From positions 19,491-83,490 of the IMG/VR virus record IMGVR_UViG_3300048999_000052: 64,000 bases of DNA; one strand, given 5' to 3'. This document shows positions 36,701 through 48,959 of the stretch, in pieces; position 1 is the stretch's first letter; every line of letters begins with the position of its first letter. A program made the position numbers and the translations under genes. Source of the DNA: a virus. The notes beneath the pieces were generated by a model that had not been told where the DNA came from, did not search any database, and saw nothing but the letters and a program-made list of their open reading frames with translations.

Positions 36701-38707
36701 ATGGCGAGCTTCGGCGTGGATGATGTGCGGATCTGGGAGGACGTGTCTGAGCCCGTCTCCCAGAACTGGAATCCGCTCGTCGAGCGAGGCGTCACTGGCG
36801 TCAAGCGGTCAGCTGGTCTGATCGATGAGGAGTTCCTTCCGGCACTGCGCGGGCGCAAGGCCATCGAGGTCTTCCGGGAGATGTCCACCAACGACTCGAT
36901 CGTTGGCGCGCTGTTGTTCGCGATCGACAAGCTGATCCGTGAGGTGGAATGGCATGTCGAGGCTCCGGACAACACCCCGGAAGGCACTGAGTGCGCGGAC
37001 TTCCTGGAAAGTTGCATGGACGACATGGAGCACAGCTGGGACGACTTTGTCTCAGAGGTGATGACCATGTTGGTCTTCGGCTGGTCCTGGCACGAGATCG
37101 TCTACAAGAAGCGGATCGGTCCGTGGGAGAAGGACGGGCGGAAGAAGTCGAACTACGACGACGGGATGATCGGCTGGCGCAAGATGCCGATCCGGTCGCA
37201 GGAGACGATGCTGCGCTGGCTGTTCGACAAGAACGGTGACGTCGAGGGTCTGGTTCAGCTGGCCCCGCCGTTCTACCAGGTCACCACCATCCCGATGTCC
37301 AAGAGCCTGTTGTTCCGTACTGCACCCTCCAAGGGCAACCCGGAGGGTCGCTCGCTGCTGCGGACGGCGTACCGGTCCTGGTACTTCAAGAAGCGCCTGG
37401 AGGAGTTCGAGGGCATCGGTGTTGAGCGTGACCTGGCTGGTATGCCGGTGGCTCGGGTGCCTGCGGACTACCTGAACGCGCCCACTGGCTCGCAGAAGGC
37501 CAAGGTCGTCGACGGCTTCCGCAAGATGGTCCGGGGCGTACGCCGGGACGAGAATGAGGGCCTAGTGCTCCCGGTGATGTATGACCCGGACACCAAGCAG
37601 CCGCTGTTCGACTTCGAATTGATGAGCTCTTCGGGAGCGCGCCAGTTCGATACCAACGCGATCATCCAGCGCTACGAGCAGCGGATCTTGATGTCGTGCC
37701 TGGCGGACTTCATTCTGGTCGGGCACGAGCAGTCCGGTTCGTACTCGATGCACACTGACAAGACCGGCATCTTCCGGGCTTCGCTGAACTCGATCACCAA
37801 GAACATCGCCGACACTCTCAACCGCAAGGCCATCCCCAAGCTGTTCGAGCTGAACGGCTGGAAGGTCCGCGAGCTGCCCAAGATCGTCGCCTCCGAGATT
37901 GACCCGCCGGACCTGACCCAGCTCGGCCAACTGATCAGCTCCACGGCGGGGGCTGGCATGCAGTGGTTCCCGGACCCGGAGCTGGAGAAGTTCATTCGGG
38001 ATATCGCTCGGCTGCCGGAGATGCCGGACGAGGTCTTGGAGATCAAGCGCCAGCAGGCCATGCAGGAGCAGGCGATGAGCCTGGCCGACAGCCAGATGCA
38101 GATGCTGGGTCTGCAGCAGAAGGCTGAGCTGACCTCGCAGGGTTACAGCCCGGAGCAGGCACAGATGATCGGTGAGACCCCGACGCCAGAGATGGCCGGC
38201 TATCAGACCGATCAAATGATGCAGCAGCAGCAGGCTGATCTGGAGATGCAGTCGCAGTACGCGATGAAGGACGACCCGGCGGCAGCTGCTCAGCACAGCC
38301 GAGACAACGAAGCCTTCGCTCGGGACCAGAAGGGCAAGGACGCTGATCTCAAGCGTCAGCAGCAGCAGCTGGCTTTGCAGGACCAATACAAGAACAAGGA
38401 CCTGGGCCGGGAGAAGGAGAAGGCCAAGCTCAACGAGCGCGGCCACAAGACCAAGGTCCAGCTGGAAGGCATGAAGGGCAAGGTCGGGGTCCAAAACGAG
38501 AAGGGCAAGTTGAGCCTGGAGGCTCAGCGGGCCAAGATCGCTGACCAGGCCGACAAGTCCAAGTTCGACCGGCAGATGGCCATGCTGAAAGAGAAGGGCA
38601 AGCAGACCCGTACTGCTGCCAGCAAGAAGCCTCTACCGGGCAAGACCGTAGCGGCAGCTAAGAAGACCGCGGCCAAGAAGACGCCGCCGAAGAAGAAGGG
38701 GCGCTGA
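36701..38707 (+). CDS. portal protein (DUF935-like) with long Gln/Lys-rich C-terminal extension
   Basis: FGWS.HEIVY, NPEGRSLLR.AY..W, GVERDLAGMP, GSYS, IP.L..LN. Confidence 0.9.
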   Translation: MASFGVDDVRIWEDVSEPVSQNWNPLVERGVTGVKRSAGLIDEEFLPALRGRKAIEVFREMSTNDSIVGALLFAIDKLIREVEWHVEAPDNTPEGTECADFLESCMDDMEHSWDDFVSEVMTMLVFGWSWHEIVYKKRIGPWEKDGRKKSNYDDGMIGWRKMPIRSQETMLRWLFDKNGDVEGLVQLAPPFYQVTTIPMSKSLLFRTAPSKGNPEGRSLLRTAYRSWYFKKRLEEFEGIGVERDLAGMPVARVPADYLNAPTGSQKAKVVDGFRKMVRGVRRDENEGLVLPVMYDPDTKQPLFDFELMSSSGARQFDTNAIIQRYEQRILMSCLADFILVGHEQSGSYSMHTDKTGIFRASLNSITKNIADTLNRKAIPKLFELNGWKVRELPKIVASEIDPPDLTQLGQLISSTAGAGMQWFPDPELEKFIRDIARLPEMPDEVLEIKRQQAMQEQAMSLADSQMQMLGLQQKAELTSQGYSPEQAQMIGETPTPEMAGYQTDQMMQQQQADLEMQSQYAMKDDPAAAAQHSRDNEAFARDQKGKDADLKRQQQQLALQDQYKNKDLGREKEKAKLNERGHKTKVQLEGMKGKVGVQNEKGKLSLEAQRAKIADQADKSKFDRQMAMLKEKGKQTRTAASKKPLPGKTVAAAKKTAAKKTPPKKKGR

Positions 38708-41700
38708 TGTTCATACCGGTCTTCAAGAGTGCCGACCCGGACTTCAACTACCACGCTGCCGACCTGGCGGCGAAGCTCGTCATGGCCATGGACGAGGACG
38801 AGGCGCGGATGTTCACCACCTGCGTCGTGGCCGACATCCTCTGGGACGACATCGAGAAGAACCAGCGCTCGCTCCAGCGCCACCTCAACTCGGTGGTGTC
38901 CAAGCGGATCCAGATGGTGGCCAAGGCAGCCGATCGGCTGGTGTCCAAGCGGGACAACAACGACTTCGGTACGGCGCTGGTGGAGATCTCCAAGGCCACC
39001 CGCAACCCCTACGACTTCGGCTACGTTTTCAACGAGTCCGACTTCAACCGTGACCCCAGCTCCGGTCAGTTCCGGTCCAAGGTTAGGTACACGGCCTCTA
39101 GGCCGGTGCCGAACAAGGTCGCCCGGGCTACGCCGAACCTGCCCAACCCGGACAAGACCAAGCACCTGAACGCGGCTGAGAAGGCGCGCTACCAGCAGGG
39201 CTACCAGCAGATCGCTAACTTCTTGGACACCATGCGCCAGTCCGGGCTGGCTGGCGACACGAAGACCTATGTCACCGTCCACGACACCGCTGAGAACCGG
39301 ACTTACGTCAAGGAAGTCAGCGGCACCGACGTGCCCACGATTGACCCCAAAACCGAGGCATTTGTCGGGATCGAAGCACGTCCCACGTCGTTGAACGTGG
39401 GCGGCGCTAGCTTCGGCCTGGTAAGTGCTCTGGGTGGTGGAGCCCATCGAGCTGACCGGGCCGGAGCTACTGCGCAGGCAGTCGATGACAATGTTCGCTC
39501 GTTCGCCACTGACTGGACCTCGGCTGGGATGGACAACCCGTTGTCCAGCAATGCTCGGCTGTATGGCCGGGTGGAGGCTGGCTCGCGGTTCCTGGGTCAG
39601 GTCGCTCCGGCTGGTTCCAAGCTGCACATGGCTGCCACCTTCGGTGAGTTCGTCGGCCGCCAAGGACCGCAGGCTGAGCGCGTGCTGGGACCGCGCGCGC
39701 GTACCACCATGTACCGCTACCGGGGTACGGAGAAGACCCCGGACAGCGAACTGACTGGCCCCTACAACCGGCAGCGCACCGGTGGTTACGCGATCGAGAA
39801 CCTGAACCCGGAGAACCAGGCCAAGATCCGCCAACTCCAGCGCGCGGCAATCACCCGGTACAAGAATGCCCACGGCGGCAAGATCAGCACCAAGGAGGCT
39901 GAGGAGGTTCGCCAGAACGTGCTACGGCGCTCCTTCGGGGTCTCCGACAAGGACGCCCGGATGGGTGCGGAGGGTGGCAAGATCCGCGCCTTCCAGACCG
40001 CTCAGGCCTTCATGATGTCCAAGGTGCCAACCGGCAAGCTCTACGACTTGCAGCTGAAGTCTGGGCACACGCCGCCGTCCGAGGGCGTCATCATCGACAA
40101 GGACGGCAAGATCGTCACCCAGGCGATTGGCTACGGTGACGACCACTACCTGCCCTTCAACCTGAAGAACCTGAAGGGGCTGCGCGGTGGTGAATACATC
40201 CGCACCCGGTCTGTGGGTGGTCCGACTACCGAAGACATCTACACCGGTTTGGTGTCTGGTGCGCATCGGCTCACCGTGGTCTCTCGTTCTGGCACCTTCA
40301 CCATCACCTTCGACGACACTTTCCGTAGTACGCGTCGGTACAACGACAAGGCTGGTCGGATGGTGGACCGGTACGGGAAGATTCTTGATGCGATCAAGTC
40401 TGAGCAGGTAGAACGCCAGCCGCTGGATCCCACTGTCCGGGCGAAGATCGCCAACGACGTGGAGACCGAGATGGGCTGGGCGCCGGCTCGGGAACAGCGC
40501 AACGAGATCCGTCGTCGCGAAGCCGAGTACAAGGAGAACCCGTACCTCACCGATGAGGACGAGGCCCAGATCGAGCGGGTCGTTCAGCGCCACGGTGGCT
40601 CGGATGCCGACAAGCAGCGGACCCGAGCTGAGCTACGTAACCAAGCGCTGGAGGACAAGGCTTACAACTTCCGGCTTAACGGTGACGGTTACGCAGCTGG
40701 CATCAAGGCGCTGGAGGAGCAGTTCCCGTACTACATCGCTGACGCTACCCACCGACCCACCCGTGAGGGTCGCTACGAGGGTGCTGGCGACCGGGGCTAC
40801 GTGAAGCCGCGCTTCAACCGGCCCAGCGAAGCCCTGGAGGGCTACTTCGACCCCTCGATCAGCGGTGAGGGCACCTTCTCCAACCCTCGGGGCGAGAAGA
40901 CCGGCAAGAACCGCGCTGACCGGATGGACTACCAGAACTCCCGGGGACGACTGACTCGGGTGGATGCTACCGAGCGGGCTCCGGGTGAGAAGGAAGCTGA
41001 GCCGGCGGTGGCTCGTCCGCCAGCTGACACGGTGGCTGCTCCCACTCCGGCCGAAGTAATGGCGGATCGGATTGAGACTGCTGCGGCCCGGCAGAGCCTG
41101 ACTGATCGTGCCGTTGAGCTGCAGCAGGCAGTAGCAGCCCGGACGGTTGCTGCCGGTGGAGACCCTGGTCCGCTGAAGGACTTCATCAGCCTGAGCCCGG
41201 AGGAGTTCCGGAACTGGTACGCCTCACCGGCCAACCAGGACACCTTCCACCGCCAGGTCGAGGCCACCATCCGACCGAACATGGACCGGCTGGGAGTCAA
41301 GGACCAGCTGACCAACTACGGAGCAGCGCGCGGGTTGGCAGGCGGGGAGAAGTTCAACCGGGCCAATCACATGGCTACCGTGCCGGATCAGCCCTACACC
41401 TTCGAGGGTGCGCCCTACATGCGTGGCGGCAATCTGGACAAGAAGGAGCGCGAGCTGCAGCGGATCGCGGCTCGGACCAAGGTGCCGGACTTCGGCTCGC
41501 TGGCGGACATGGAACACGACGATGACTTCAAGGAAGCGCTGCGTTCGGCTCAGAAGCTTCGGGTGATCTCTGACCAGCTGGCGCAATACCCGCCGGATGA
41601 GAACGGCAGCCGTAACTCCTACCTGATGGCACTGGCTCAGAATGATGAGACGGTGGCGGCGATGTCGCCAGAGGAGAAGCGACTGCTGACCGAGCCCGGT

Positions 41701-42138
41701 CGAGTCGACCAGATGGTCGAGGACGTCAACCGGGCCTGGGCACTGCGCAAGCTGATCGGTCCGAAGACCACCCTGACCACCAGTACCGGACGGCTGGAAC
41801 CTACCGGGCAGACCATCGCTACACCGCCGCAGACTCCGGTGCAGCGAGCCGAAGCCTCGGTAGTGACGCCAGCCTCGAACCGAAGGGCTGCTCGAAGCTA
41901 CCGCGAGGCATTGTCGACCTACGCTCAGCGGATTGCCGATATCAACCCGCAGGCAGCCGACGCACTCAACGACGTCGCCAGCCAGTTCGACATTGCCCAG
42001 CACACGCCCGAGGCCAGCGTGCAGAGCGAGTTCAACGCTGCTCAGGCAGCATTGATGGACCTGACCACTGACTTCCCGCAGTTCAAGAAGGGGATCGAGG
42101 AGGACATCATGCGCCGCCTGCATGAGGACAACCGGTGA
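38707..42138 (+). CDS. large internal head protein (1143 aa) with degenerate JAB/MPN-like domain
   Basis: Between portal and MuF; N-terminal [VI]xK-rich segment, RD..GQF motif, EGVIIDKDG...RTRSVGGPTTEDI. Confidence 0.65.
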   Translation: MFIPVFKSADPDFNYHAADLAAKLVMAMDEDEARMFTTCVVADILWDDIEKNQRSLQRHLNSVVSKRIQMVAKAADRLVSKRDNNDFGTALVEISKATRNPYDFGYVFNESDFNRDPSSGQFRSKVRYTASRPVPNKVARATPNLPNPDKTKHLNAAEKARYQQGYQQIANFLDTMRQSGLAGDTKTYVTVHDTAENRTYVKEVSGTDVPTIDPKTEAFVGIEARPTSLNVGGASFGLVSALGGGAHRADRAGATAQAVDDNVRSFATDWTSAGMDNPLSSNARLYGRVEAGSRFLGQVAPAGSKLHMAATFGEFVGRQGPQAERVLGPRARTTMYRYRGTEKTPDSELTGPYNRQRTGGYAIENLNPENQAKIRQLQRAAITRYKNAHGGKISTKEAEEVRQNVLRRSFGVSDKDARMGAEGGKIRAFQTAQAFMMSKVPTGKLYDLQLKSGHTPPSEGVIIDKDGKIVTQAIGYGDDHYLPFNLKNLKGLRGGEYIRTRSVGGPTTEDIYTGLVSGAHRLTVVSRSGTFTITFDDTFRSTRRYNDKAGRMVDRYGKILDAIKSEQVERQPLDPTVRAKIANDVETEMGWAPAREQRNEIRRREAEYKENPYLTDEDEAQIERVVQRHGGSDADKQRTRAELRNQALEDKAYNFRLNGDGYAAGIKALEEQFPYYIADATHRPTREGRYEGAGDRGYVKPRFNRPSEALEGYFDPSISGEGTFSNPRGEKTGKNRADRMDYQNSRGRLTRVDATERAPGEKEAEPAVARPPADTVAAPTPAEVMADRIETAAARQSLTDRAVELQQAVAARTVAAGGDPGPLKDFISLSPEEFRNWYASPANQDTFHRQVEATIRPNMDRLGVKDQLTNYGAARGLAGGEKFNRANHMATVPDQPYTFEGAPYMRGGNLDKKERELQRIAARTKVPDFGSLADMEHDDDFKEALRSAQKLRVISDQLAQYPPDENGSRNSYLMALAQNDETVAAMSPEEKRLLTEPGRVDQMVEDVNRAWALRKLIGPKTTLTTSTGRLEPTGQTIATPPQTPVQRAEASVVTPASNRRAARSYREALSTYAQRIADINPQAADALNDVASQFDIAQHTPEASVQSEFNAAQAALMDLTTDFPQFKKGIEEDIMRRLHEDNR

Positions 42139-44123
42139 CGGCTGATCTGTTCGAGGACCCGGGCCAGGAACTCCTGGCTCGGGGCACCGCTGACCCGATT
42201 GAGGCGCTCCAGCTCAGTCAGGCCGAGCAGGACCAGCTCGACGTGGTTCGGGGCGAGGCTAACTCGGCTCGGACGCTAGCCCAGGTCGGGCTGGTCCTCG
42301 GTGCCGCCTTCTTGCTGTACCGCCACTATGTCCACCGCCGGACTTTGGCTCAAGTAAGTTCCCAGCCTGAATCGCGCTTCCTTCAGGCTCTGACCTTGCG
42401 CAACGCTCGGAACTTCATCCCGGCCTGGGTGTACATGGTCACGCCCGCACTGGAGACCGCCTACACGGTCGGCATGGTCCGGGGCGGGAATGCCGCTATC
42501 CCGGACGAGATGGTTACCCAGTACGCCCAGCGGTACGCAACCGACATCGCTGACTACATCAACGAGACCTCGGCGCAGGCACTGGCTGAGGGCTTCAATG
42601 CCTACGTCAACAAGAAGGTGGCTCGGCGGGTAGCAGCCGAGAAGGCACTGCAGGGCTTCGGACTGAACAGCAGGATGATGCGTGCCCTGGTCGGGCGGGT
42701 AGCCCGGGCCAAGGTCGACTCGGTGGTTGAACTCAATCACGATGCCTCCACCCGGGACTGGATCGAAATGATGCTGGTCCAGCGGGCGCACGACATCGGG
42801 GACAACGAGGGCTTCAATGTCTCCCAACATGGACAACAGATCACCTGGTTGTACCTACAGCGGACGGGGCGACTGTCGCCAGCCGCACTCAAGGTCTGGC
42901 ACACCGCCCGGGACGAACGTGTGTGTCCGTCATGCGGTCCGCTGGATAAGCAGGCCGTACCGGTCAACCAGCCCTTCACGACCGTCTTTGGGAAGCTGTG
43001 GGTGCCTTCGATGCATCCAAACTGTCGTTGCGAGGTGCGACTCCGGTCTCTGGTGCGAGATGAGTTCGTAGCTGAGCAGGTGGCTAAGGCCGATGCCTTC
43101 CTGGAGCGCGAGCACCCGCGTGGGCGCGATGGTCGGTTCCGGGCGAAGCCAGCGGCTGAGCGCGAGCGCGAAAGCGATCTGGAAAGGTTGCTCCGTGAAG
43201 TCGAAGAGCGCGAAGCACCGCCGGAGCCGGCTGTCGATCTGGGTGAAGCGGTTGATCTGGGTACGGGTGTGGATCTGGGCGCAGCTTCACTCGGAGGCAC
43301 CTCCCTGGCCGGAGTCGACCTCGGACCCGTCAATCTTGGCCAAGCCGAACAAGTCGAACTGGCTCAACCAGCCGTAAGCATCCCGGCCGTCTCGCTGCCG
43401 CAGGAGCAGGTTGAGTTGGCTGGTCAGCAGATGGTGTCGCTGGCTACCGACCAGACGGCAGTGATGCTGACCGAAGCTCCTCGGGCGCCAATTCAGGCCA
43501 AGGGGCCGGGGATCATCAATCTGCCCGACACCTTGTACAGGCTGGATACGGCTGGCTTCCACTTCCACCCGGAGTACTCCGATCACCTGACCTGGTCCGA
43601 TGACGGCGAGGTGGAGTACGCCTTCTTTGGTCCAGAGCATGAGTTCACTACGCATCAGAACACGGTGGACGCAATAAAGGCGCTGTACGAGCAGGAGATC
43701 GAGCGGGAGACCACTCGGATCATGACCGAGGGCAGGAACTACGTCGGTGCCCAGGGACGCGACCCGCTGCAGCTGGATCGGCACTTTGTCCGGGCTGCGA
43801 TCGAGGCTGAGGTCACTGGCTCTCCTGATCACCCTGGTTTCCGTACCTATGCCAACGCGATGGGGATCCACCGTAGCGAATGGATCCTGCGGGTTTATCG
43901 GATGGACCGGGCCTACTCCGAAGGCTTCGTCGGTGAGATGAGCGCGCACGGCGAGACCGAGTTCTTCCAGGCGCCCGGACGGTACTACGCCGAGGACGAG
44001 CTGCTAGCCACCGAAGAGTGGGACGGCTGGCCGGTGGCTGTGGTGGATGTCGAGCCGGAAGAGGAGGAGGGGCAATTCGATGACTTCCGCACCCGCAACC
44101 GTGATGACTGGCCACCGAGCTGA
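42135..44123 (+). CDS. MuF/SPP1 gp7-like head morphogenesis protein with C-terminal extension
   Basis: KVWHTARDERVCPSCGPLD...PSMHPNCRC; HPRGRDGRF; VDLG repeats. Confidence 0.85.
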   Translation: MTADLFEDPGQELLARGTADPIEALQLSQAEQDQLDVVRGEANSARTLAQVGLVLGAAFLLYRHYVHRRTLAQVSSQPESRFLQALTLRNARNFIPAWVYMVTPALETAYTVGMVRGGNAAIPDEMVTQYAQRYATDIADYINETSAQALAEGFNAYVNKKVARRVAAEKALQGFGLNSRMMRALVGRVARAKVDSVVELNHDASTRDWIEMMLVQRAHDIGDNEGFNVSQHGQQITWLYLQRTGRLSPAALKVWHTARDERVCPSCGPLDKQAVPVNQPFTTVFGKLWVPSMHPNCRCEVRLRSLVRDEFVAEQVAKADAFLEREHPRGRDGRFRAKPAAERERESDLERLLREVEEREAPPEPAVDLGEAVDLGTGVDLGAASLGGTSLAGVDLGPVNLGQAEQVELAQPAVSIPAVSLPQEQVELAGQQMVSLATDQTAVMLTEAPRAPIQAKGPGIINLPDTLYRLDTAGFHFHPEYSDHLTWSDDGEVEYAFFGPEHEFTTHQNTVDAIKALYEQEIERETTRIMTEGRNYVGAQGRDPLQLDRHFVRAAIEAEVTGSPDHPGFRTYANAMGIHRSEWILRVYRMDRAYSEGFVGEMSAHGETEFFQAPGRYYAEDELLATEEWDGWPVAVVDVEPEEEEGQFDDFRTRNRDDWPPS

Positions 44124-44133
44124 CCATGAAGTC

Positions 44134-45099
44134 ATGACCAGCGCAATCCAGGATGTAGCCGAGCTGCTATTTGGCGACGGCGCGGACGAGCTGGTGCGTA
44201 AGATGAACCCTACCCAGTCCGACCTGGCTGCCAAGAAAAAGCGTGAGCGGACCCAGGCCCAGGTCGGTCTGGCCTCCAACCTTGTCGGGATCACCGCTGG
44301 TACGGCTGCGACAGCTGAAGCCGCGGGCAAGTTCAAGGAAGCTCGCCGGCTCAAGCGCGGCCTGTTGACTGAGGCCAAGGTGCCGGGCAAGATCGCCACT
44401 TCACTGGGACACATCAAGACCAAGCACGTAGTCGGGCTGGCTGCGGCTGGTCTTGGCCTGCAGGCGGCCAACGTGGCTGGCGATGCGATCGCCAACCGGG
44501 TGCTGGCCCGTAGCGCCAAGATGCCCCAGGATCACAAGAAGAAGATTCAGAAGAACAAGAACGAGTACGCCACCGACATCACCTTGTCTCGGGGCAAGCT
44601 GGCGATGGCTGGGGTGAAGACCGGCAAGAAGGCTGCTCCGGTGATGGTGGACACTGCCCGCAAGATCGAGAGCAAGGTCCAGAAGGATTTGGACATCACC
44701 TGGGAGGGTGAGTTCTCCAAGTTCGACACCGACAAGAAGCAGGTCTTCGGCTGGGCTTCGGTGGTGGAGATCGGTGGTGAGCCGGTGATCGATCGTCAGG
44801 GTGACTACATCTCCCCCGACGAGATCGAGAAGGCGGCGTACTCCTACGTGGTCAAGTCCCGCAAGGGCGGGGACATGCATCAGCGCACCGGCGAAGTACC
44901 GCTGCACGTCTCGGACATGATCGAGTCGTTCATGGTCACGCCGGAGAAGCTGGAGAAGATGGGACTGCCTTCGGACGCACTGCCCACCGGTTGGTGGGTC
45001 GGGTACCAGATCAACGACGACAAGACCTGGGACCTGGTGAAGAAGGGCGAACGGACGGGGTTCTCTATCCACGGTCGTGGCAAGCGGAAGGACCTCTGA
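44134..45099 (+). CDS. XkdF-like prohead serine protease core fused to an N-terminal Gly-zipper region
   Basis: VFGWASV...DRQGD.I...EIEKAAY...DMH...IESF...GWWVG..I.D...W..VKKGE.TGFSI.G. Confidence 0.85.
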   Translation: MTSAIQDVAELLFGDGADELVRKMNPTQSDLAAKKKRERTQAQVGLASNLVGITAGTAATAEAAGKFKEARRLKRGLLTEAKVPGKIATSLGHIKTKHVVGLAAAGLGLQAANVAGDAIANRVLARSAKMPQDHKKKIQKNKNEYATDITLSRGKLAMAGVKTGKKAAPVMVDTARKIESKVQKDLDITWEGEFSKFDTDKKQVFGWASVVEIGGEPVIDRQGDYISPDEIEKAAYSYVVKSRKGGDMHQRTGEVPLHVSDMIESFMVTPEKLEKMGLPSDALPTGWWVGYQINDDKTWDLVKKGERTGFSIHGRGKRKDL

Positions 45100-46088
45100 T
45101 GCCCTACCAGTCCGACGCGCAGCGTGGCTTCATGCACGCCAAGCATCCTGAGATCGCGGCCAAGTGGGACGCGGAGATCCGGTCCAAGAAGCACAAGCAC
45201 TCCAAGGACTGCGAGCACGCGGTGGACAAGAACGACCCGTTCGAGGTTGCCAAGGCCAAGATCCCGAAGGTGTCTGCTGGTCTGTCCGGTGCGCAGAAGG
45301 CTGGCCGCAAGGCCAAGAGCACTGCTAAGAACACCTACCTGAATGCCACCTCCAAGCCGACCTTCCGTAGTCCGTACACCGGTGACAAGTTCGGTAGCCG
45401 GAACAGTCGGATGTCGTCGTCTGACAAGAAGTTCTCCTTTCGGACTGGGCTAGCTGTGGGTGCTACCGGTGGCGGACTGGCTTCTGGCGTCGTTCATAGT
45501 CCGGAGATTAAGCGCAACAACAAGAAGGCCGAGGAGCTGAGCAAGGCTCGCTCGACTTTGATCACTGACTTCGGTACGACTGCGGGTAAGGCCCGTAAGT
45601 ACCCCGGGTTCCGAGCTGGGCGGTTCGCTGCCGGTACGGCAGTTGGGGCTGGGGCGATTTATGGCATGGGCTCAGCAGAGCGTGATGTCTCCAGGAATGC
45701 GTTGAGCCGGGCTCAGTCGAACAAGAAGCGGCGGGACACCATCGCCGCCAAGAAGAACGGGAGTACGACCGTGGCGAAGCAGGAGAAGGCAACGGGTGGA
45801 CGGCTGGCGGCGGGATATCTCGCTCCCGGTATCCATGGCGCGATTGCGGGCAAGAAGGGCAGCAAGCTCCGGGCGGCAGGCAACGAATTGGGCGGCACTG
45901 TCCTGGGATCGACTGCCGGTGGATTGGCTGCTGGTGTGCTGACCAGAGGTAAGGGCGCGGCGGCGGGCTCGGCCATTGGCTCTGGTGTCGGCGCTGTGGC
46001 TGGTACGGCTCGGGCGCAGCGGAAGGGTCACTTCAAGTTGCAGAAGAACGATGCCGTCTCGGCGTTCGGTGTGGACCACGGCTACTGA
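45099..46088 (+). CDS. basic multi-module Gly-zipper head protein
   Basis: MPYQSDAQR.FMHAKHPEIA.KW N-terminal motif; three cationic/hydrophobic modules; ends SAFGVDHGY. Confidence 0.75.
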   Translation: MPYQSDAQRGFMHAKHPEIAAKWDAEIRSKKHKHSKDCEHAVDKNDPFEVAKAKIPKVSAGLSGAQKAGRKAKSTAKNTYLNATSKPTFRSPYTGDKFGSRNSRMSSSDKKFSFRTGLAVGATGGGLASGVVHSPEIKRNNKKAEELSKARSTLITDFGTTAGKARKYPGFRAGRFAAGTAVGAGAIYGMGSAERDVSRNALSRAQSNKKRRDTIAAKKNGSTTVAKQEKATGGRLAAGYLAPGIHGAIAGKKGSKLRAAGNELGGTVLGSTAGGLAAGVLTRGKGAAAGSAIGSGVGAVAGTARAQRKGHFKLQKNDAVSAFGVDHGY

Positions 46089-46089
46089 G

Positions 46090-46440
46090 ATGGCCCAGAA
46101 CTCGAAGTTGCCAAGCAACTCGCGAATCGCTCGCCAGAAGAAGGCCCAGGCGGGCTTCTCTCTGGTGGGCGGCACGCTGGGCCTTGCTGCGTTGGCTTCT
46201 CGGGGTAAGGCTTCGCAGCTCACCAATGCGGCCAAGAAGACCACTGCCAATGGTCCACGGCTGCTCAGCCAGGCAGCCAGGTGGAAGGACCGCAGTACGG
46301 CGCTGACCACCGCAGGTGCTGGAGTTGGCGGAGTTGGAGCGTACAACTTCGCCTCCTACACCAACGCGGACGCGAAGAAGCAGCAGCGGTTGAAGAAGTC
46401 CGACACGGTTTCACCGTTCGGAATTGACCACGGGTATTAA
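46090..46440 (+). CDS. basic Gly-zipper head protein
   Basis: Two Gly/Ala hydrophobic segments; ends SPFGIDHGY. Confidence 0.75.
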   Translation: MAQNSKLPSNSRIARQKKAQAGFSLVGGTLGLAALASRGKASQLTNAAKKTTANGPRLLSQAARWKDRSTALTTAGAGVGGVGAYNFASYTNADAKKQQRLKKSDTVSPFGIDHGY

Positions 46441-46483
46441 ACCCGACTTGCGCGGACTCAGAAACTAAGAGCGAGGTGACGAA

Positions 46484-47509
46484 GTGAAGCCGAAGGTTGT
46501 CAAGGGACTGTCCGACATCGAGATCGACGAGGTCTCGCTGGTGGACCGGAGTGCCAACCAGCACGCTGCAGTCGCCATCGCGAAGAGGGCTCCCGAGGAG
46601 GAGAATATGCCCGATCTGTACACCGAGGACGGAACCCTCCTCGATGAAGACACCCTGGTGAACGGCCAGATCGTCTATGCCCAGGACGGCACCGCCTACG
46701 AGTTCACCGCCGACCCTGAGGTCGAGCCGGGGGACGAAGAGGTTGACGAGCCGGACGAGGACATTGAAGACGACGACGTTGAGGTAGAAGAGCGGGAGCT
46801 TGCTGGTGTTGGCAAGGCCTTTGGCTTCGCCGGCTCTGCTGGTACGCAGGCCCCGAGTCGCCCGACGATGCAGCCCTCCACCCCGGCTAGCCCGTTCCGA
46901 GTCGGCGCGGGTATGAACCAGCAGAAGAAGAAGCCCCTCGCGGGCCAAATGGGAGGTGGCGCGATGCCCCAGCGTCCGAAGCTCGGGGCGGCTGCTGCAC
47001 GCCCCACGGTCGCGAAGTCTTTCCAGGAGCAGGTACTCGAAGAGCTGTCCAAGGCCTACACCGACGAGGACCGCGATGCGGTGCTGTCGAAGGCGTTCGC
47101 TGAGGTAGACGGCTATAAGACCCAGGCGGCTGAGGCAGTCAAGATTGCCAAGTCCGAGCGGGACCTGCGACTGACCAACGAGTACATCGCCAAGGCAGAG
47201 GAATACAACCTGCCGGTGGATGCTGCTCAGCTCGGCCCGGTGCTGTACCGGATGGCCGAGACCATGAGCTACGAGGACTGCTCGGTGATCGCGAAGTGCC
47301 TGGAGGCTTCGGGCTCGATGATCTTCGAGGAGGTCGGCTACATCGGTGGCGGTGACAATGTCGACGTACTGGACGCTGTTGACGCTCAGGCTCAGGAGCT
47401 GGTCGGCAAGTCCGACAGCTTGGGCACCGAGGAAGCCTGGTCTCAGGTATTCGAGTCCAACCCGCAGGCCTACGACGAGTACCTCGCCCAGTCGCGGCGC
47501 GGTTACTGA
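46484..47509 (+). CDS. scaffolding protein with N-terminal protease strand; internal start at 46607
   Basis: LSDIEIDEVSLVDRSAN; acidic linker; helical C-half ending NPQAYDEY; upstream of capsid genes. Confidence 0.8.
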   Translation: MKPKVVKGLSDIEIDEVSLVDRSANQHAAVAIAKRAPEEENMPDLYTEDGTLLDEDTLVNGQIVYAQDGTAYEFTADPEVEPGDEEVDEPDEDIEDDDVEVEERELAGVGKAFGFAGSAGTQAPSRPTMQPSTPASPFRVGAGMNQQKKKPLAGQMGGGAMPQRPKLGAAAARPTVAKSFQEQVLEELSKAYTDEDRDAVLSKAFAEVDGYKTQAAEAVKIAKSERDLRLTNEYIAKAEEYNLPVDAAQLGPVLYRMAETMSYEDCSVIAKCLEASGSMIFEEVGYIGGGDNVDVLDAVDAQAQELVGKSDSLGTEEAWSQVFESNPQAYDEYLAQSRRGY

Positions 47510-47530: not shown

Positions 47531-47932
47531 GTGGCGTACGACGAGTCGCTCCGTAGCATCACGCTGAAGGCTGACAGCTCTGTCGGCATCTACACGGGTG
47601 TACCCGGCATGCCGGGATCTGCGAACCCCAACGCGGGCAAGCAGTACCACTTCGTGAAGGTGACCGGTGCAGGGATTATCGGTCTCGGAGACGCAACCGC
47701 AAATCCGGTTGGCGTCCTCCAGAACAAGCCCCAGGGCGTTGGCCATGCGGCCACCGTGGGGTTCAACGGTGTCACCCGAGTTGTCTCGGACGTGGCCATC
47801 ACCGCTGGCGACCTGATCAAGGTCTCCGCAGATGGCCAGGCCGCAAAGACCGGCGCGGGTCCGACCGTTGGAATCGCTCTGACCACGACTGCGGCGGCAG
47901 GGGACCTTGTGTCCGTCCTGCTGACCCTCTGA
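47531..47932 (+). CDS. capsid decoration/cement protein (DUF2190-like)
   Basis: FVK...GVLQNKP...G.T.V.....I.AGD.I.....G.A...GIAL..A.AGD.VSVLL. Confidence 0.8.
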   Translation: MAYDESLRSITLKADSSVGIYTGVPGMPGSANPNAGKQYHFVKVTGAGIIGLGDATANPVGVLQNKPQGVGHAATVGFNGVTRVVSDVAITAGDLIKVSADGQAAKTGAGPTVGIALTTTAAAGDLVSVLLTL

Positions 47933-47951: not shown

Positions 47952-48959
47952 ATGCCGTCTCCCTCGCAGAGCGATCTCCACGTCAACGTACCGCTGACGA
48001 ACATCTCGATCGCGTACATGCAGAAGGCTGACGCGTATATCGCGAACAAGGTCTTCCCGCGTGTACCGGTGCAGAAGCAGTCGGACATGTACTGGAAGTA
48101 CACCAAGTCGGACTGGCGCCGGACGGACGTGCAGAAGCGTGCGCCGGGCACCGAGTCGGCTGGCGTCGGCTGGAAGGTCGACACCGATACGTACTTCGCG
48201 CACCCGTACGCGGTGCACAAGGACATCGACGACCAGCTTCGGGCCAACGCAGACTCCAACTGGAGCCTGGATCGGGACTCGACCACGTTCATCACCAACC
48301 AGATGCTGATCAAGCGGGACCTGGACTGGGCGAACGCGTTCTTCAAGACCGGTGTGTGGGGATCGGACCAGACTGGTGTGGCGGCTAGCCCGACCACCAA
48401 CCAGTTCCTGCAGTTCGACGACCCGGCCTCTGACCCCATCTCGCTGTTCGCGATGGCTCAGATCAAGTTCGTCGAGCAGACCGGCTACAAGGCCAACACC
48501 CTGGTCATGGGTGCACAGGTGCTCCGGGTTCTCAAGGAACACCCGGACATCATCGACCGAATCAAGTACACCCAGAAGGGCATCGTCAGCACTGACCTGC
48601 TGGCCACGCTCTTCGACGTGGACAAGATCCTGGTCAGCTACGCTTCCTCGACCAACGTCGCCGAGCAGGCTGACGGTCGGCTCCAGGACGCGGCAGCCAC
48701 CTACGCTTTCATCAACGACCCGTACTCGATGCTGCTGTGCTACAGCGCTTCGTCCCCGTCGCTGATGACCCCGACCGCGGGGTACACGTTCACCTGGAAC
48801 GGGTACAGCAACGGCAACGGCCAGGGCATTCGGGTCAAGAACTTCCGGATGGAACACCTGGAGGTTGATCGCATCGAGGCCACGATGACCTACGACATGA
48901 AGGTTGTGTCGCCGGACATGGGCATCTTCTACTCGGCTGCAGTCGCCACGGTTTCCTGA
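47952..48959 (+). CDS. major capsid protein
   Basis: HVNVPLTNISIAY...IA..VFP.VPV.KQS...RAPGTE; 335 aa; followed by a terminator. Confidence 0.9.
   Translation: MPSPSQSDLHVNVPLTNISIAYMQKADAYIANKVFPRVPVQKQSDMYWKYTKSDWRRTDVQKRAPGTESAGVGWKVDTDTYFAHPYAVHKDIDDQLRANADSNWSLDRDSTTFITNQMLIKRDLDWANAFFKTGVWGSDQTGVAASPTTNQFLQFDDPASDPISLFAMAQIKFVEQTGYKANTLVMGAQVLRVLKEHPDIIDRIKYTQKGIVSTDLLATLFDVDKILVSYASSTNVAEQADGRLQDAAATYAFINDPYSMLLCYSASSPSLMTPTAGYTFTWNGYSNGNGQGIRVKNFRMEHLEVDRIEATMTYDMKVVSPDMGIFYSAAVATVS

What the first reader, a model, noticed from the sequence alone, without database searches (positions are those of the whole stretch)
44730..46610. Split prohead protease: His/Ser core and the EVSLVD strand are on different genes
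Seen: 44134-45099 ends just after DMH...TGFSIHG. The scaffold gene 1.4 kb downstream begins KGLSDIEIDEVSLVDRSANQHAAVAIAK, then has a strong internal RBS (GAGGAGGAGAAT-ATG, 46607). Established: in HK97-type prohead proteases the segment after the catalytic-Ser motif, L.EVS.V..PA, completes the fold and supplies the acidic residue; nested protease/scaffold starts occur in lambda C/Nu3. Inference: the enzyme is completed in trans only when core and full-length scaffold meet in the prohead (an assembly-gated switch), with two cargo genes inserted at the split point.
Basis: partly seen in the sequence, partly recalled or inferred. Interest (0 to 1): 0.8.

Follow-up and report, generated by a model that had tools for sequence, protein, structure and literature searches.

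The report
Head protease split onto scaffold gene
In this uncultivated phage the enzyme that trims the head during assembly lacks the last beta-strand of its own fold, and that strand instead opens the long form of the scaffold protein, which probably hooks the enzyme onto the scaffold and may complete it.

Summary
The window is a complete 83.5-kb IMG/VR phage. Gene 44134-45099 ends 10 residues after the catalytic-Ser motif of an XkdF-type (PF14550) prohead protease. The scaffold gene (46484-47509) opens with a 27-residue segment homologous to the strand that follows the Ser motif in the same chain in HK97 gp4 and in 145 of 150 psiM100-like proteases. In Bacillus-type XkdF proteins that strand precedes the core.

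The split is fixed in this phage family. All 120 protease relatives lack the strand, all 120 scaffold relatives have it, and 44 of 44 loci keep them in separate ORFs 572-4709 nt apart. It also occurs with adjacent genes in cultured phages (Salmonella 9NA, Roseobacter RDJL Phi 1, CRP-6).

A GGAGG plus in-frame ATG/GTG after the strand is kept in 52 of 52 non-identical loci, so a strandless short scaffold is probably made too.

AlphaFold models suggest the strand pairs with the Ser strand. Without it, the Ser segment of the window protease is low-confidence and matches T4 gp21 only to residue 150, against 172 for the fused form.

Docking in trans, a need for the strand in catalysis and "assembly gating" are inferred, not shown. 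No single acidic residue is conserved across the classes.

This scan noted the same split in at least 13 other genomes. I found no paper on it.

The parts
44134..45099 (+). Prohead protease gene (321 aa from ATG 44134; the frame is open from 44047). It has a helical Gly/Ala-rich N-terminal extension plus an XkdF-type core, and ends 10 residues after the catalytic Ser.
   Evidence: (PF14550, 72.6 bits).
44710..45099 (+). Protease core (assemblin fold). His249 is at 44878-44880 and Ser311 at 45064-45066. Both are invariant in 115 of 115 aligned relatives.
   Evidence: invariant columns H249, S311. T4 gp21 5jbl_A, Z 8.2, rmsd 2.8, 105 aligned, model 192-321 against chain 12-150. Foldseek probability 0.84.
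45099..46088 (+). Inserted gene 1 (329 aa, Gly/Ala/Lys-rich, no family match). Probable head cargo. Its start overlaps the protease stop (ATGA).
   Evidence: 0 families. In relatives L062 and L065 comparable sequence is fused to the protease C-terminus.
46090..46440 (+). Inserted gene 2 (116 aa). It shares a C-terminal ...S.FG[VI]DHGY tail with gene 1.
46484..47509 (+). Scaffold gene, long form (341 aa, GTG start).
   Evidence: 886 relatives; phrog_13547 on the C-terminal half. It lies between the protease and the cement and capsid genes.
46505..46585 (+). Detached protease strand: scaffold residues 8-34 (GLSDIEIDEVSLVDRSANQHAAVAIAK), ending at a conserved K-R.
   Evidence: 120 of 120 relatives; homology to the strand of single-chain proteases; single copy in the genome.
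46597..46601 (+). Internal Shine-Dalgarno GGAGG, 5 nt before the internal ATG.
   Evidence: present in 52 of 52 non-identical loci, and kept where the encoded residues differ (PEGH, PEVG, EEVA).
46607..47509 (+). Nested short scaffold (300 aa from Met42) that lacks the strand.
   Evidence: the in-frame start codon is ATG in 48 loci and GTG in 4. Expression was not tested.
47531..47932 (+). Cement or decoration protein (context).
   Evidence: PF09956, E 5.7e-5, 23.9 bits, just under the 24-bit cut-off.
47952..48959 (+). Major capsid protein (context).
   Evidence: phrog_1005, E 2.4e-87.

Best explanation
The phage's only head-maturation protease is an assemblin-fold Ser/His enzyme of the XkdF/HK97 kind, and it is encoded in two pieces. 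The gene at 44134-45099 makes the core with the catalytic His and Ser and stops 10 residues after the Ser. The beta-strand that follows the Ser strand in single-chain relatives is residues about 8-34 of the long isoform of the scaffold. Inferred: this strand inserts beside the Ser strand of the core in trans. That would tether the protease, with its helical N-terminal extension, to a scaffold molecule and so carry it into the procapsid. It would probably also order the active-site strand. A conserved internal ribosome-binding site and start codon at 46607 make a short scaffold without the strand, so only the long-form fraction of scaffold molecules can carry a protease. The conserved K34-R35 at the end of the strand is probably where the scaffold body is cut off, as between protease and scaffold parts of fused relatives. 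Shown here: the homology, the split, its fixation, the single copies and the conserved internal start signal. Inferred: docking, the effect on activity, the isoform ratio and the cleavage site.
For: The core is complete up to the Ser motif and no further. In 120 of 120 relatives the protein ends 5-15 residues after ..S.HG, and 0 of 120 have a strand-like motif. The scaffold N-terminus is the most conserved part of the protein, with D15, E16, S18, V20, N25, Q26 and I32-A36 invariant in 20 of 20 diverse relatives, and the motif is present in 120 of 120. The same segment sits in one chain after the core in HK97 gp4, in psiM100 ORF12 and in 145 of 150 representatives found with psiM100 core plus strand. 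It sits before the core in Bacillus, Enterococcus and Lactococcus XkdF proteins. It is the start of the next gene in CRP-6, Tedan, RHph_TM3_3_9, RDJL Phi 1 and 9NA. The AlphaFold model of the fused form has a Ser strand at 120-127 (pLDDT 92-93) and the VS.V strand at 147-155 (pLDDT 95-96). It matches VZV protease (Z 10.6) and T4 gp21 (Z 10.4, chain 24-172), with the next unrelated chain at Z 5.5. The model of the window protease has a confident core (pLDDT 85-94), but its Ser segment has no strand and pLDDT about 55, and the match to gp21 ends at residue 150. Ser140 is the gp21 nucleophile (passages of bioRxiv 10.64898/2026.03.04.709575). The genome has no other strand copy, core, S78, ClpP or S49 protease. 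All 44 loci holding both genes keep them apart. The internal GGAGG plus ATG/GTG is kept in 52 of 52 loci.
Against: No complex could be modelled and there is no experiment. The similarity of the short strand is weak by each single test. The Pfam hit is 12.7-13.5 bits against a cut-off of 21. hhalign probabilities are only 4-31% despite E 0.01 to 0.0005. An HMM of the psiM100-type tail alone does not pick the scaffold out of the window's 1396 ORFs (E 1.7, rank 5). PF04586 finds nothing in the genome at E <= 1. No acidic residue of the strand is conserved across the split and fused classes, so a catalytic role is unproven and a Ser-His dyad is possible. Low pLDDT at a chain end is common and is not proof of disorder. 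The two models used different alignments. GAG is 89% of Glu codons here (1406 of 1573), so codon choice alone does not prove the internal SD.
Confidence: 0.6

Rival explanations
1. Relic or cleavage-site reading. The scaffold N-terminal motif was inherited from a fused protease-scaffold ancestor but no longer binds the core. It is kept as the recognition and cleavage site (..IAK|R) or for a scaffold function such as portal or capsid binding. The core works alone as a Ser-His enzyme and enters the head through its own N-terminal extension.
For: The motif ends in a conserved K-[RS] in all classes. No acid is conserved across the classes. The protease has a long conserved N-terminal extension that could target it by itself. 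The core is confidently predicted without the strand.
Against: Twenty-seven residues are conserved far beyond what a cleavage site needs, and more strongly than the rest of the scaffold. The equivalent segment is a buried-looking, high-confidence strand of the fold in the fused model. The Ser segment of the window protease is unstructured in its model. A nested start that removes exactly this segment fits a dosed adaptor better than a cleavage site.
Confidence: 0.25
2. The missing strand is supplied from elsewhere: by the protease's own N-terminal extension, by a second protease molecule (strand swap), or by another gene.
For: The N-terminal extension is conserved. In Bacillus-type XkdF proteins the strand does lie N-terminal to the core.
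Against: The extension is predicted to be all-helical. The region just before the core varies in length and sequence. Three strand HMMs find only the scaffold N-terminus among 1396 six-frame ORFs of the window, and the strand alignment finds only that site in the whole genome.
Confidence: 0.05
3. The core is a pseudo-enzyme or a cargo-targeting domain, and there is no proteolytic maturation in this phage family.
For: It lacks part of the fold. It is fused to cargo-like polyproteins in L062 and L065.
Against: His249 and Ser311 are invariant in 115 of 115 sequences. No other protease family is present in the genome.
Confidence: 0.05
4. Chance resemblance of a short peptide.
For: Each single score is weak.
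Against: The same motif is at the start of the gene after, or some genes after, an XkdF core in six unrelated phage groups. There is a direct hit to a fused protease at the expected place (E 5e-4), and an iterated search converged on that place in 146 of 151 sequences.
Confidence: 0.02

Closest known systems
Single-chain XkdF-type protease-scaffold proteins (PF14550): psiM100 ORF12 and its relatives, collinear; Bacillus phages BMBtp14 and B83, Enterococcus EG-TP1 and Lactococcus 62501, with the strand first
   Same: Same core family (PF14550, 100-163 bits). Same strand motif ending in K-[SR]. A scaffold-like acidic or coiled part follows, and the protein has the same place before the capsid gene.
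   Different: There, core, strand and scaffold are one polypeptide. Here the chain is cut between the Ser motif and the strand, two genes are inserted, and the strand stays with the scaffold.
HK97 gp4 prohead protease (PF04586, Peptidase_S78)
   Same: Assemblin-type Ser/His protease. The segment ALREISVCTFPANEQAGIAAMKS (residues 138-160) follows the Ser motif inside the Pfam domain and aligns with scaffold residues 12-37.
   Different: The window core does not match PF04586. gp4 is one chain and has no scaffold part; that HK97 uses the capsid delta domain instead is recalled, not from a call.
Split-adjacent pairs in cultured phages: Salmonella 9NA gp37/gp38, Roseobacter RDJL Phi 1 gp71/gp72, CRP-6 gp55/gp54, Ruegeria Tedan, Rhizobium RHph_TM3_3_9
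   Same: The core gene ends after ..S.GG, and the next gene starts with the strand motif and continues as a scaffold-like protein.
   Different: Their genes abut or overlap (TAATG, ATGA). They have no inserted genes and no clear internal start after the strand. The records annotate the cores as hypothetical or 'DNA methyltransferase' and do not note the split.
Nested protease/scaffold or scaffold genes (lambda C/Nu3; recalled, not from a call)
   Same: Two in-frame products from one gene share a C-terminal scaffold part, and the longer one carries the protease-related part.
   Different: Here the long form carries only one strand of the protease, not the enzyme.
Viral proteases completed by a cofactor peptide: flavivirus NS2B-NS3, HCV NS3-NS4A, adenovirus protease with the pVIc peptide of a capsid precursor (recalled, not from a call)
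   Same: This is what it would work like: a short peptide from another protein adds a beta-strand to the protease and activates or localises it.
   Different: These are unrelated folds. Here the peptide is demonstrably a detached piece of the enzyme's own ancestral chain, and activation is not shown.

Membership tests
Peptidase_S78_2 / XkdF (PF14550) | Match to the family HMM over the curated cut-off | tested here: met
   72.6 bits against 24, positions 5-124 of 126; 75.1 bits in the genome search.
Peptidase_S78_2 / XkdF (PF14550) | Conserved catalytic His and Ser | tested here: met
   H249 and S311 are invariant in 115 of 115. D28, H57 and S119 are the only invariant columns across 12 distant cores.
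Peptidase_S78_2 / XkdF (PF14550) | Assemblin (herpesvirus protease / T4 gp21) fold | tested here: met
   5jbl_A, Z 8.2, rmsd 2.8, 105 aligned (tied in Z with unrelated helical rows that match the N-terminal extension); gp21 probability 0.84, herpesvirus proteases 0.57-0.60.
Peptidase_S78_2 / XkdF (PF14550) | VS.V(D/E).PA strand in the same polypeptide as the core | tested here: not met
   absent from the protease ORF and from 120 of 120 relatives. It is present in 145 of 150 psiM100-like representatives.
Peptidase_S78 / HK97 gp4 type (PF04586) | Match of the core to the family HMM | tested here: not met
   no PF04586 hit at E <= 1 for the protease; no match in the genome at E <= 1.
Peptidase_S78 / HK97 gp4 type (PF04586) | C-terminal l.EvSlv..PAn segment of the domain | tested here: inconclusive
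   scaffold residues 7-39 match profile positions 129-161 of 165 at 12.7-13.5 bits (cut-off 21). This is the only Pfam hit. E 0.0023 against gp4 residues 138-163.
Nested scaffold genes (two in-frame products) | In-frame internal start codon with its own Shine-Dalgarno, conserved among relatives | tested here: met
   52 of 52 non-identical loci have GGAGG within 18 nt of an ATG (48) or GTG (4).
Nested scaffold genes (two in-frame products) | Both products actually made | not testable with these tools
   This needs proteomics or ribosome profiling of an infected host. The phage is uncultivated.
Cofactor-completed proteases (works-like class) | The peptide binds the core as an added beta-strand and changes activity | not testable with these tools
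The only indirect evidence comes from the monomer models.

The most novel reading that the evidence does not exclude
A two-gene serine protease: the active site of the head-maturation enzyme forms only when the core binds the N-terminal strand of the long scaffold isoform. Proteolysis would then be licensed by the scaffold itself, and the nested start would set how many scaffold molecules carry an enzyme. The cut between core and strand has become a landing site where head-cargo genes are inserted or fused. This would be a general solution used by thousands of phages, including the cultured Salmonella phage 9NA and the Roseobacter RDJL phages.
Probability: 0.35. Interest if true: 0.8.

Novelty: new variant of a known kind. 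Interest (0 to 1): 0.65.

Why it matters
How head proteases get into procapsids, and why they stay quiet until assembly, is solved differently in each model phage and is unknown for XkdF-type enzymes. A protease whose last strand travels on the scaffold would give a simple physical answer for recruitment and perhaps for activation. It can be tested in cultured phages that share the split (9NA gp37/gp38, RDJL Phi 1 gp71/gp72). It also shows one small strand in three positions relative to the core (after, before, on another gene), which is a clean natural case of permutation and fission of an enzyme fold. In practice, these cores are often annotated as 'DNA methyltransferase' or hypothetical, and the scaffolds are not annotated at all.

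Tried and rejected
Own strand in the protease: rejected. The family alignment shows a variable, non-strand region before the core. The model is helical there. HMM scans find no second strand in the window or in the genome.

Frameshift or read-through fusion of core and strand: rejected for this window, because 1.4 kb and two ORFs lie between them. It was not examined in depth for the adjacent-split phages.

Another protease in the genome: none of PF04586, PF00574 or PF01343 was found at E <= 1.

Assigning the third catalytic residue: tried by comparing conserved acids and by the reported H/S/D triad with D at Ser+25 in gp21-type enzymes (passages of PMC5694885). No position is conserved across the classes, so it is left open.

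Tests that failed or were weak:
- The psiM100-type tail HMM against the window ORFs gave E 1.7, rank 5 of 1396.
- Sequence searches of the PDB with the protease, psiM100 ORF12, the BMBtp14 protease and HK97 gp4 gave no relevant chain.
- Foldseek E-values for both models stayed above 0.001.
- tblastn of the scaffold against cultured phages gave no match.

Literature: no paper describing the split was found. The searches were 'XkdF' / 'prohead protease' (listing only), '9NA, scaffolding, protease, gp38' (0 papers), 'Peptidase_S78_2, PF14550, XkdF-like, S78_2' (the 15 papers listed of 669 held none of the first three terms and matched only 's782' in unrelated fields), 'maturation protease, scaffolding protein, strand complementation' (0 papers), and the HK97 gp4 encapsidation terms (listing only). 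Cheng et al. 2004 (PMC2279824) is not held; what I say of it is recalled. Supplements were not opened.
Full report
WHAT IS THERE. The window is bases 19491-83490 of a complete 83,490-bp IMG/VR virus record with direct terminal repeats. Its head module reads on the + strand as follows:
- a 1143-aa protein with no family match (38707-42138);
- a MuF-like protein (42135-44123, PF04233);
- the protease (44134-45099);
- two small Gly/Ala/Lys-rich ORFs (45099-46088 and 46090-46440);
- the scaffold (46484-47509);
- a cement protein (47531-47932);
- the major capsid protein (47952-48959, phrog_1005, E 2.4e-87).

The protease has a roughly 190-residue N-terminal extension and a C-terminal PF14550 (Peptidase_S78_2, XkdF) domain. 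That domain matches profile positions 5-124 of 126 at 72.6 bits. The protein ends ...TGFSIHGRGKRKDL, 10 residues after the catalytic Ser. The scaffold begins MKPKVVKGLSDIEIDEVSLVDRSANQHAAVAIAKRAPEEENMPDLY. GAGGAGGAG lies at 46595-46603 and an in-frame ATG at 46607.

IS THE SCAFFOLD N-TERMINUS A PIECE OF THE PROTEASE? Several independent comparisons say yes, though each one is weak because the segment is short.
- Against all of Pfam, the first 41-60 residues have one hit: the C-terminal end of PF04586, the HK97-type prohead protease (positions 129-161 of 165, E 0.08-0.14, 12.7-13.5 bits, below the 21-bit cut-off). The CRP-6 counterpart hits the same positions at E 0.016.
- HK97 gp4 itself carries ALREISVCTFPANEQAGIAAMKS after its Ser motif, inside the Pfam domain. 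A 10-sequence strand profile aligns to gp4 residues 138-163 (hhalign E 0.0023, probability 12.5%).
- The scaffold profile aligns to the post-Ser segment of a 146-sequence alignment of psiM100-like proteases (E 0.01, probability 4%).
- An HMM of the family's strand hits a single-chain protease, P0360, at residues 149-175, directly after its core (E 5e-4 in 1556 sequences). It also hits the CRP-6 scaffold N-terminus (E 3.9e-9).
- Four rounds of iteration at an inclusion threshold of 1e-3 converge on that same place in 146 of 151 sequences.

Against this:
- An HMM made only from the psiM100-type tail does not single out the scaffold among the window's 1396 six-frame ORFs (E 1.7, rank 5).
- PF04586 finds nothing in the genome at E <= 1.

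THE LAYOUTS IN RELATIVES. I read the protease region of 12 cultured phages and saw three layouts.
- Collinear, single chain (core, strand, scaffold-like tail): Methanothermobacter psiM100 ORF12. A full HMMER search with its core plus strand found 5882 proteins at E <= 0.001. Of the best 150 representatives, 145 carry the strand after the core in the same chain. The other five are short, 125-217 aa, and may be fragments or cores of split forms.
- Strand first, then core, then scaffold: Bacillus phages BMBtp14 and B83, Enterococcus EG-TP1 and Lactococcus 62501. Here the strand profile aligns to residues 5-31 of about 400 (E 0.00052), which agrees with the phrog_3017 positions. By eye, Haloarcula HHTV-2 has this layout too.
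- Split, adjacent genes: Roseobacter CRP-6 (gp55/gp54) and RDJL Phi 1 (gp71/gp72), Ruegeria Tedan, Rhizobium RHph_TM3_3_9 and Salmonella 9NA (gp37/gp38). The core gene ends just after ..S.GG, and the abutting or overlapping next gene begins with the strand motif.

The window family is a fourth layout: split, with genes in between. Several of the cultured-phage cores are annotated 'DNA methyltransferase'. That annotation looks mistaken, but I did not test it beyond their PF14550-type sequences.

THE SPLIT IS FIXED IN THIS FAMILY.
- The best 120 of 869 protease relatives all end 5-15 residues after ..S.HG, and none has a strand-like motif.
- The best 120 of 886 scaffold relatives all have the motif and the AK[RK]...[MV]P segment.
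- Of 63 IMG/VR loci fetched with the scaffold alignment, 44 hold both genes. In 44 of 44 they are separate ORFs, with 572-4709 nt (median about 2.0 kb over 38 non-identical loci) from the protease stop to the strand. Fifteen loci hold only the strand, because the locus ends or the protease lies further off. Four hold neither at the thresholds used.
- In L062 and L065 the protease ORF runs on for 372 and 608 residues into cargo-like sequence. The material at the split point is therefore sometimes fused to the protease.
- The genome has one core, one strand, and no S78, ClpP or S49 protease.

THE NESTED START. In 52 of 52 non-identical loci a GGAGG lies within 18 nt upstream of an in-frame ATG (48 loci) or GTG (4 loci), 6-9 codons after the AK[RK]. 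The pentamer is kept where the encoded residues change: PEGH = CCGGAGGGGCAT, PEVG = CCGGAGGTTGGG, EEVA = GAGGAGGTAGCG. Where Met is replaced by Val, the codon is always GTG. That argues for selection on the RNA signal. By contrast, GAG is 89% of Glu codons in these genes (1406 of 1573), so GAG-GAG alone would prove little. The long form starts with GTG in the window. A short scaffold without the strand is therefore likely, but expression is untested. The adjacent-split cultured phages show no comparable internal start.

STRUCTURE. The AlphaFold2 model of the window protease used 115 sequences and has mean pLDDT 72. The extension forms long helices. The core (residues 194-305) is confident, at pLDDT 85-94. 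The last 11 residues, which include FSIHG, have pLDDT about 55 and no strand. It matches T4 gp21 (5jbl_A: Z 8.2, rmsd 2.8, 105 aligned, model 192-321 against chain 12-150) and, by Foldseek, gp21 (probability 0.84) and herpesvirus proteases. The Z of 8.2 is tied with unrelated helical chains that match the extension.

The model of psiM100 core plus strand used 146 sequences and has pLDDT 84.5 and pTM 0.77. The Ser lies in a strand at 120-127 (pLDDT 92-93). A short helix follows, and then the VS.V segment forms strand 147-155 (pLDDT 95-96). This model matches VZV protease (1vzv_A: Z 10.6, rmsd 2.5, 111 aligned, model 24-170) and gp21 (Z 10.4, rmsd 3.2, 116 aligned, model 18-157 against chain 24-172). 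The first unrelated chain is at Z 5.5.

With the strand, then, the match to gp21 runs 22 residues further past Ser140 than it does for the window protease. H85 and S140 are the gp21 catalytic residues (passages of bioRxiv 10.64898/2026.03.04.709575). In gp21-type enzymes the third triad residue is reported 25 residues after the Ser (gp245 H77, S153, D178; passages of PMC5694885), which is in this region.

Caveats: the two models rest on different alignments, chain ends often score low, and the tools give no coordinates, so I could not check which strands pair.

THE CATALYTIC ACID IS NOT SETTLED. In this family D15, E16 and D21 of the scaffold are invariant. In fused relatives the positions equivalent to D15 and E16 vary. 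Their near-invariant acid is the D of an L.DLG turn (D142 in the numbering), and its likely counterpart here (D11) is D or N among relatives. Bacillus-type proteins have His two residues before the Ser of the motif, and HK97 gp4 has Glu there. The strand may be structural only.

MECHANISM. I read this as a protease whose last strand travels on the long scaffold isoform. The steps are inferred:
- The strand inserts next to the Ser strand of the core.
- This ties the protease, and whatever is attached to it, to a scaffold molecule and so brings it into the procapsid.
- It probably orders the active site.
- The short isoform supplies the bulk scaffold.
- Cleavage after K34 separates the scaffold body from the strand.

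Nothing prevents the two proteins from pairing in the cytoplasm. The main rival, at about 0.25, is that the motif is an inherited cleavage or recognition element and the core works alone.

NOVELTY. The parts are known kinds: an XkdF/HK97-type protease, a protease-scaffold fusion and nested scaffold genes. The fission of the fold between enzyme and scaffold gene, with a nested start that removes the detached strand, was not described in any paper my searches reached (listings and passages only). This scan's notebook holds at least 13 notes of the same split on other genomes, two of them followed up with the same reading. Those are unchecked AI notes, not independent evidence. I class the finding as a new variant of a known kind.

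Noticed in passing
L062:649-3114 and L065:2112-5435: In two relatives the protease ORF does not stop after the Ser motif. It continues for 372 and 608 residues into Gly/Ala/Lys/Arg-rich sequence like the genes inserted in the window. That makes a polyprotein of N-extension, core and cargo.
   Followed up: partly
window 46038-46088 and 46390-46440: The two inserted proteins end in nearly the same tail (..DAVSAFGVDHGY and ..DTVSPFGIDHGY), although the rest of the proteins differ. This may be a shared targeting or cleavage tag.
   Followed up: no
window 44134-44709: The protease N-terminal extension has two conserved Gly/Ala-rich hydrophobic helices (..QAQVGLASNLVGITAGTA.. and ..LGLQAANVAGDAIANRVLARSAK). 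They are predicted as long helices and resemble the composition of the inserted genes.
   Followed up: no
window 46796-46816 (scaffold residues 105-111): A second invariant E....GK site (E105, G110, K111 in 20 of 20) sits at the end of the acidic linker. It may be a second [VIL]-x-K type cleavage site.
   Followed up: no
L008 (RDJL Phi 1 gp71), L009 (9NA gp37), L012 (Lactococcus 62501), Rhizobium RHph records: XkdF-type protease cores or whole protease-scaffold proteins are annotated 'DNA methyltransferase' in several GenBank/RefSeq phage records, and phrog_1530 carries that label. This looks like a propagated mis-annotation.
   Followed up: partly
P0040 (scaffold relative): One scaffold relative carries an internal duplication of about 45 residues (SKAFSD...LRLTRE repeated). 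A source names it 'ribosomal protein L31', which is surely wrong.
   Followed up: no
window 38707-42138: A 1143-aa protein upstream of MuF has no Pfam or PHROG match at the thresholds used, although it sits where a portal or large head protein is expected.
   Followed up: no
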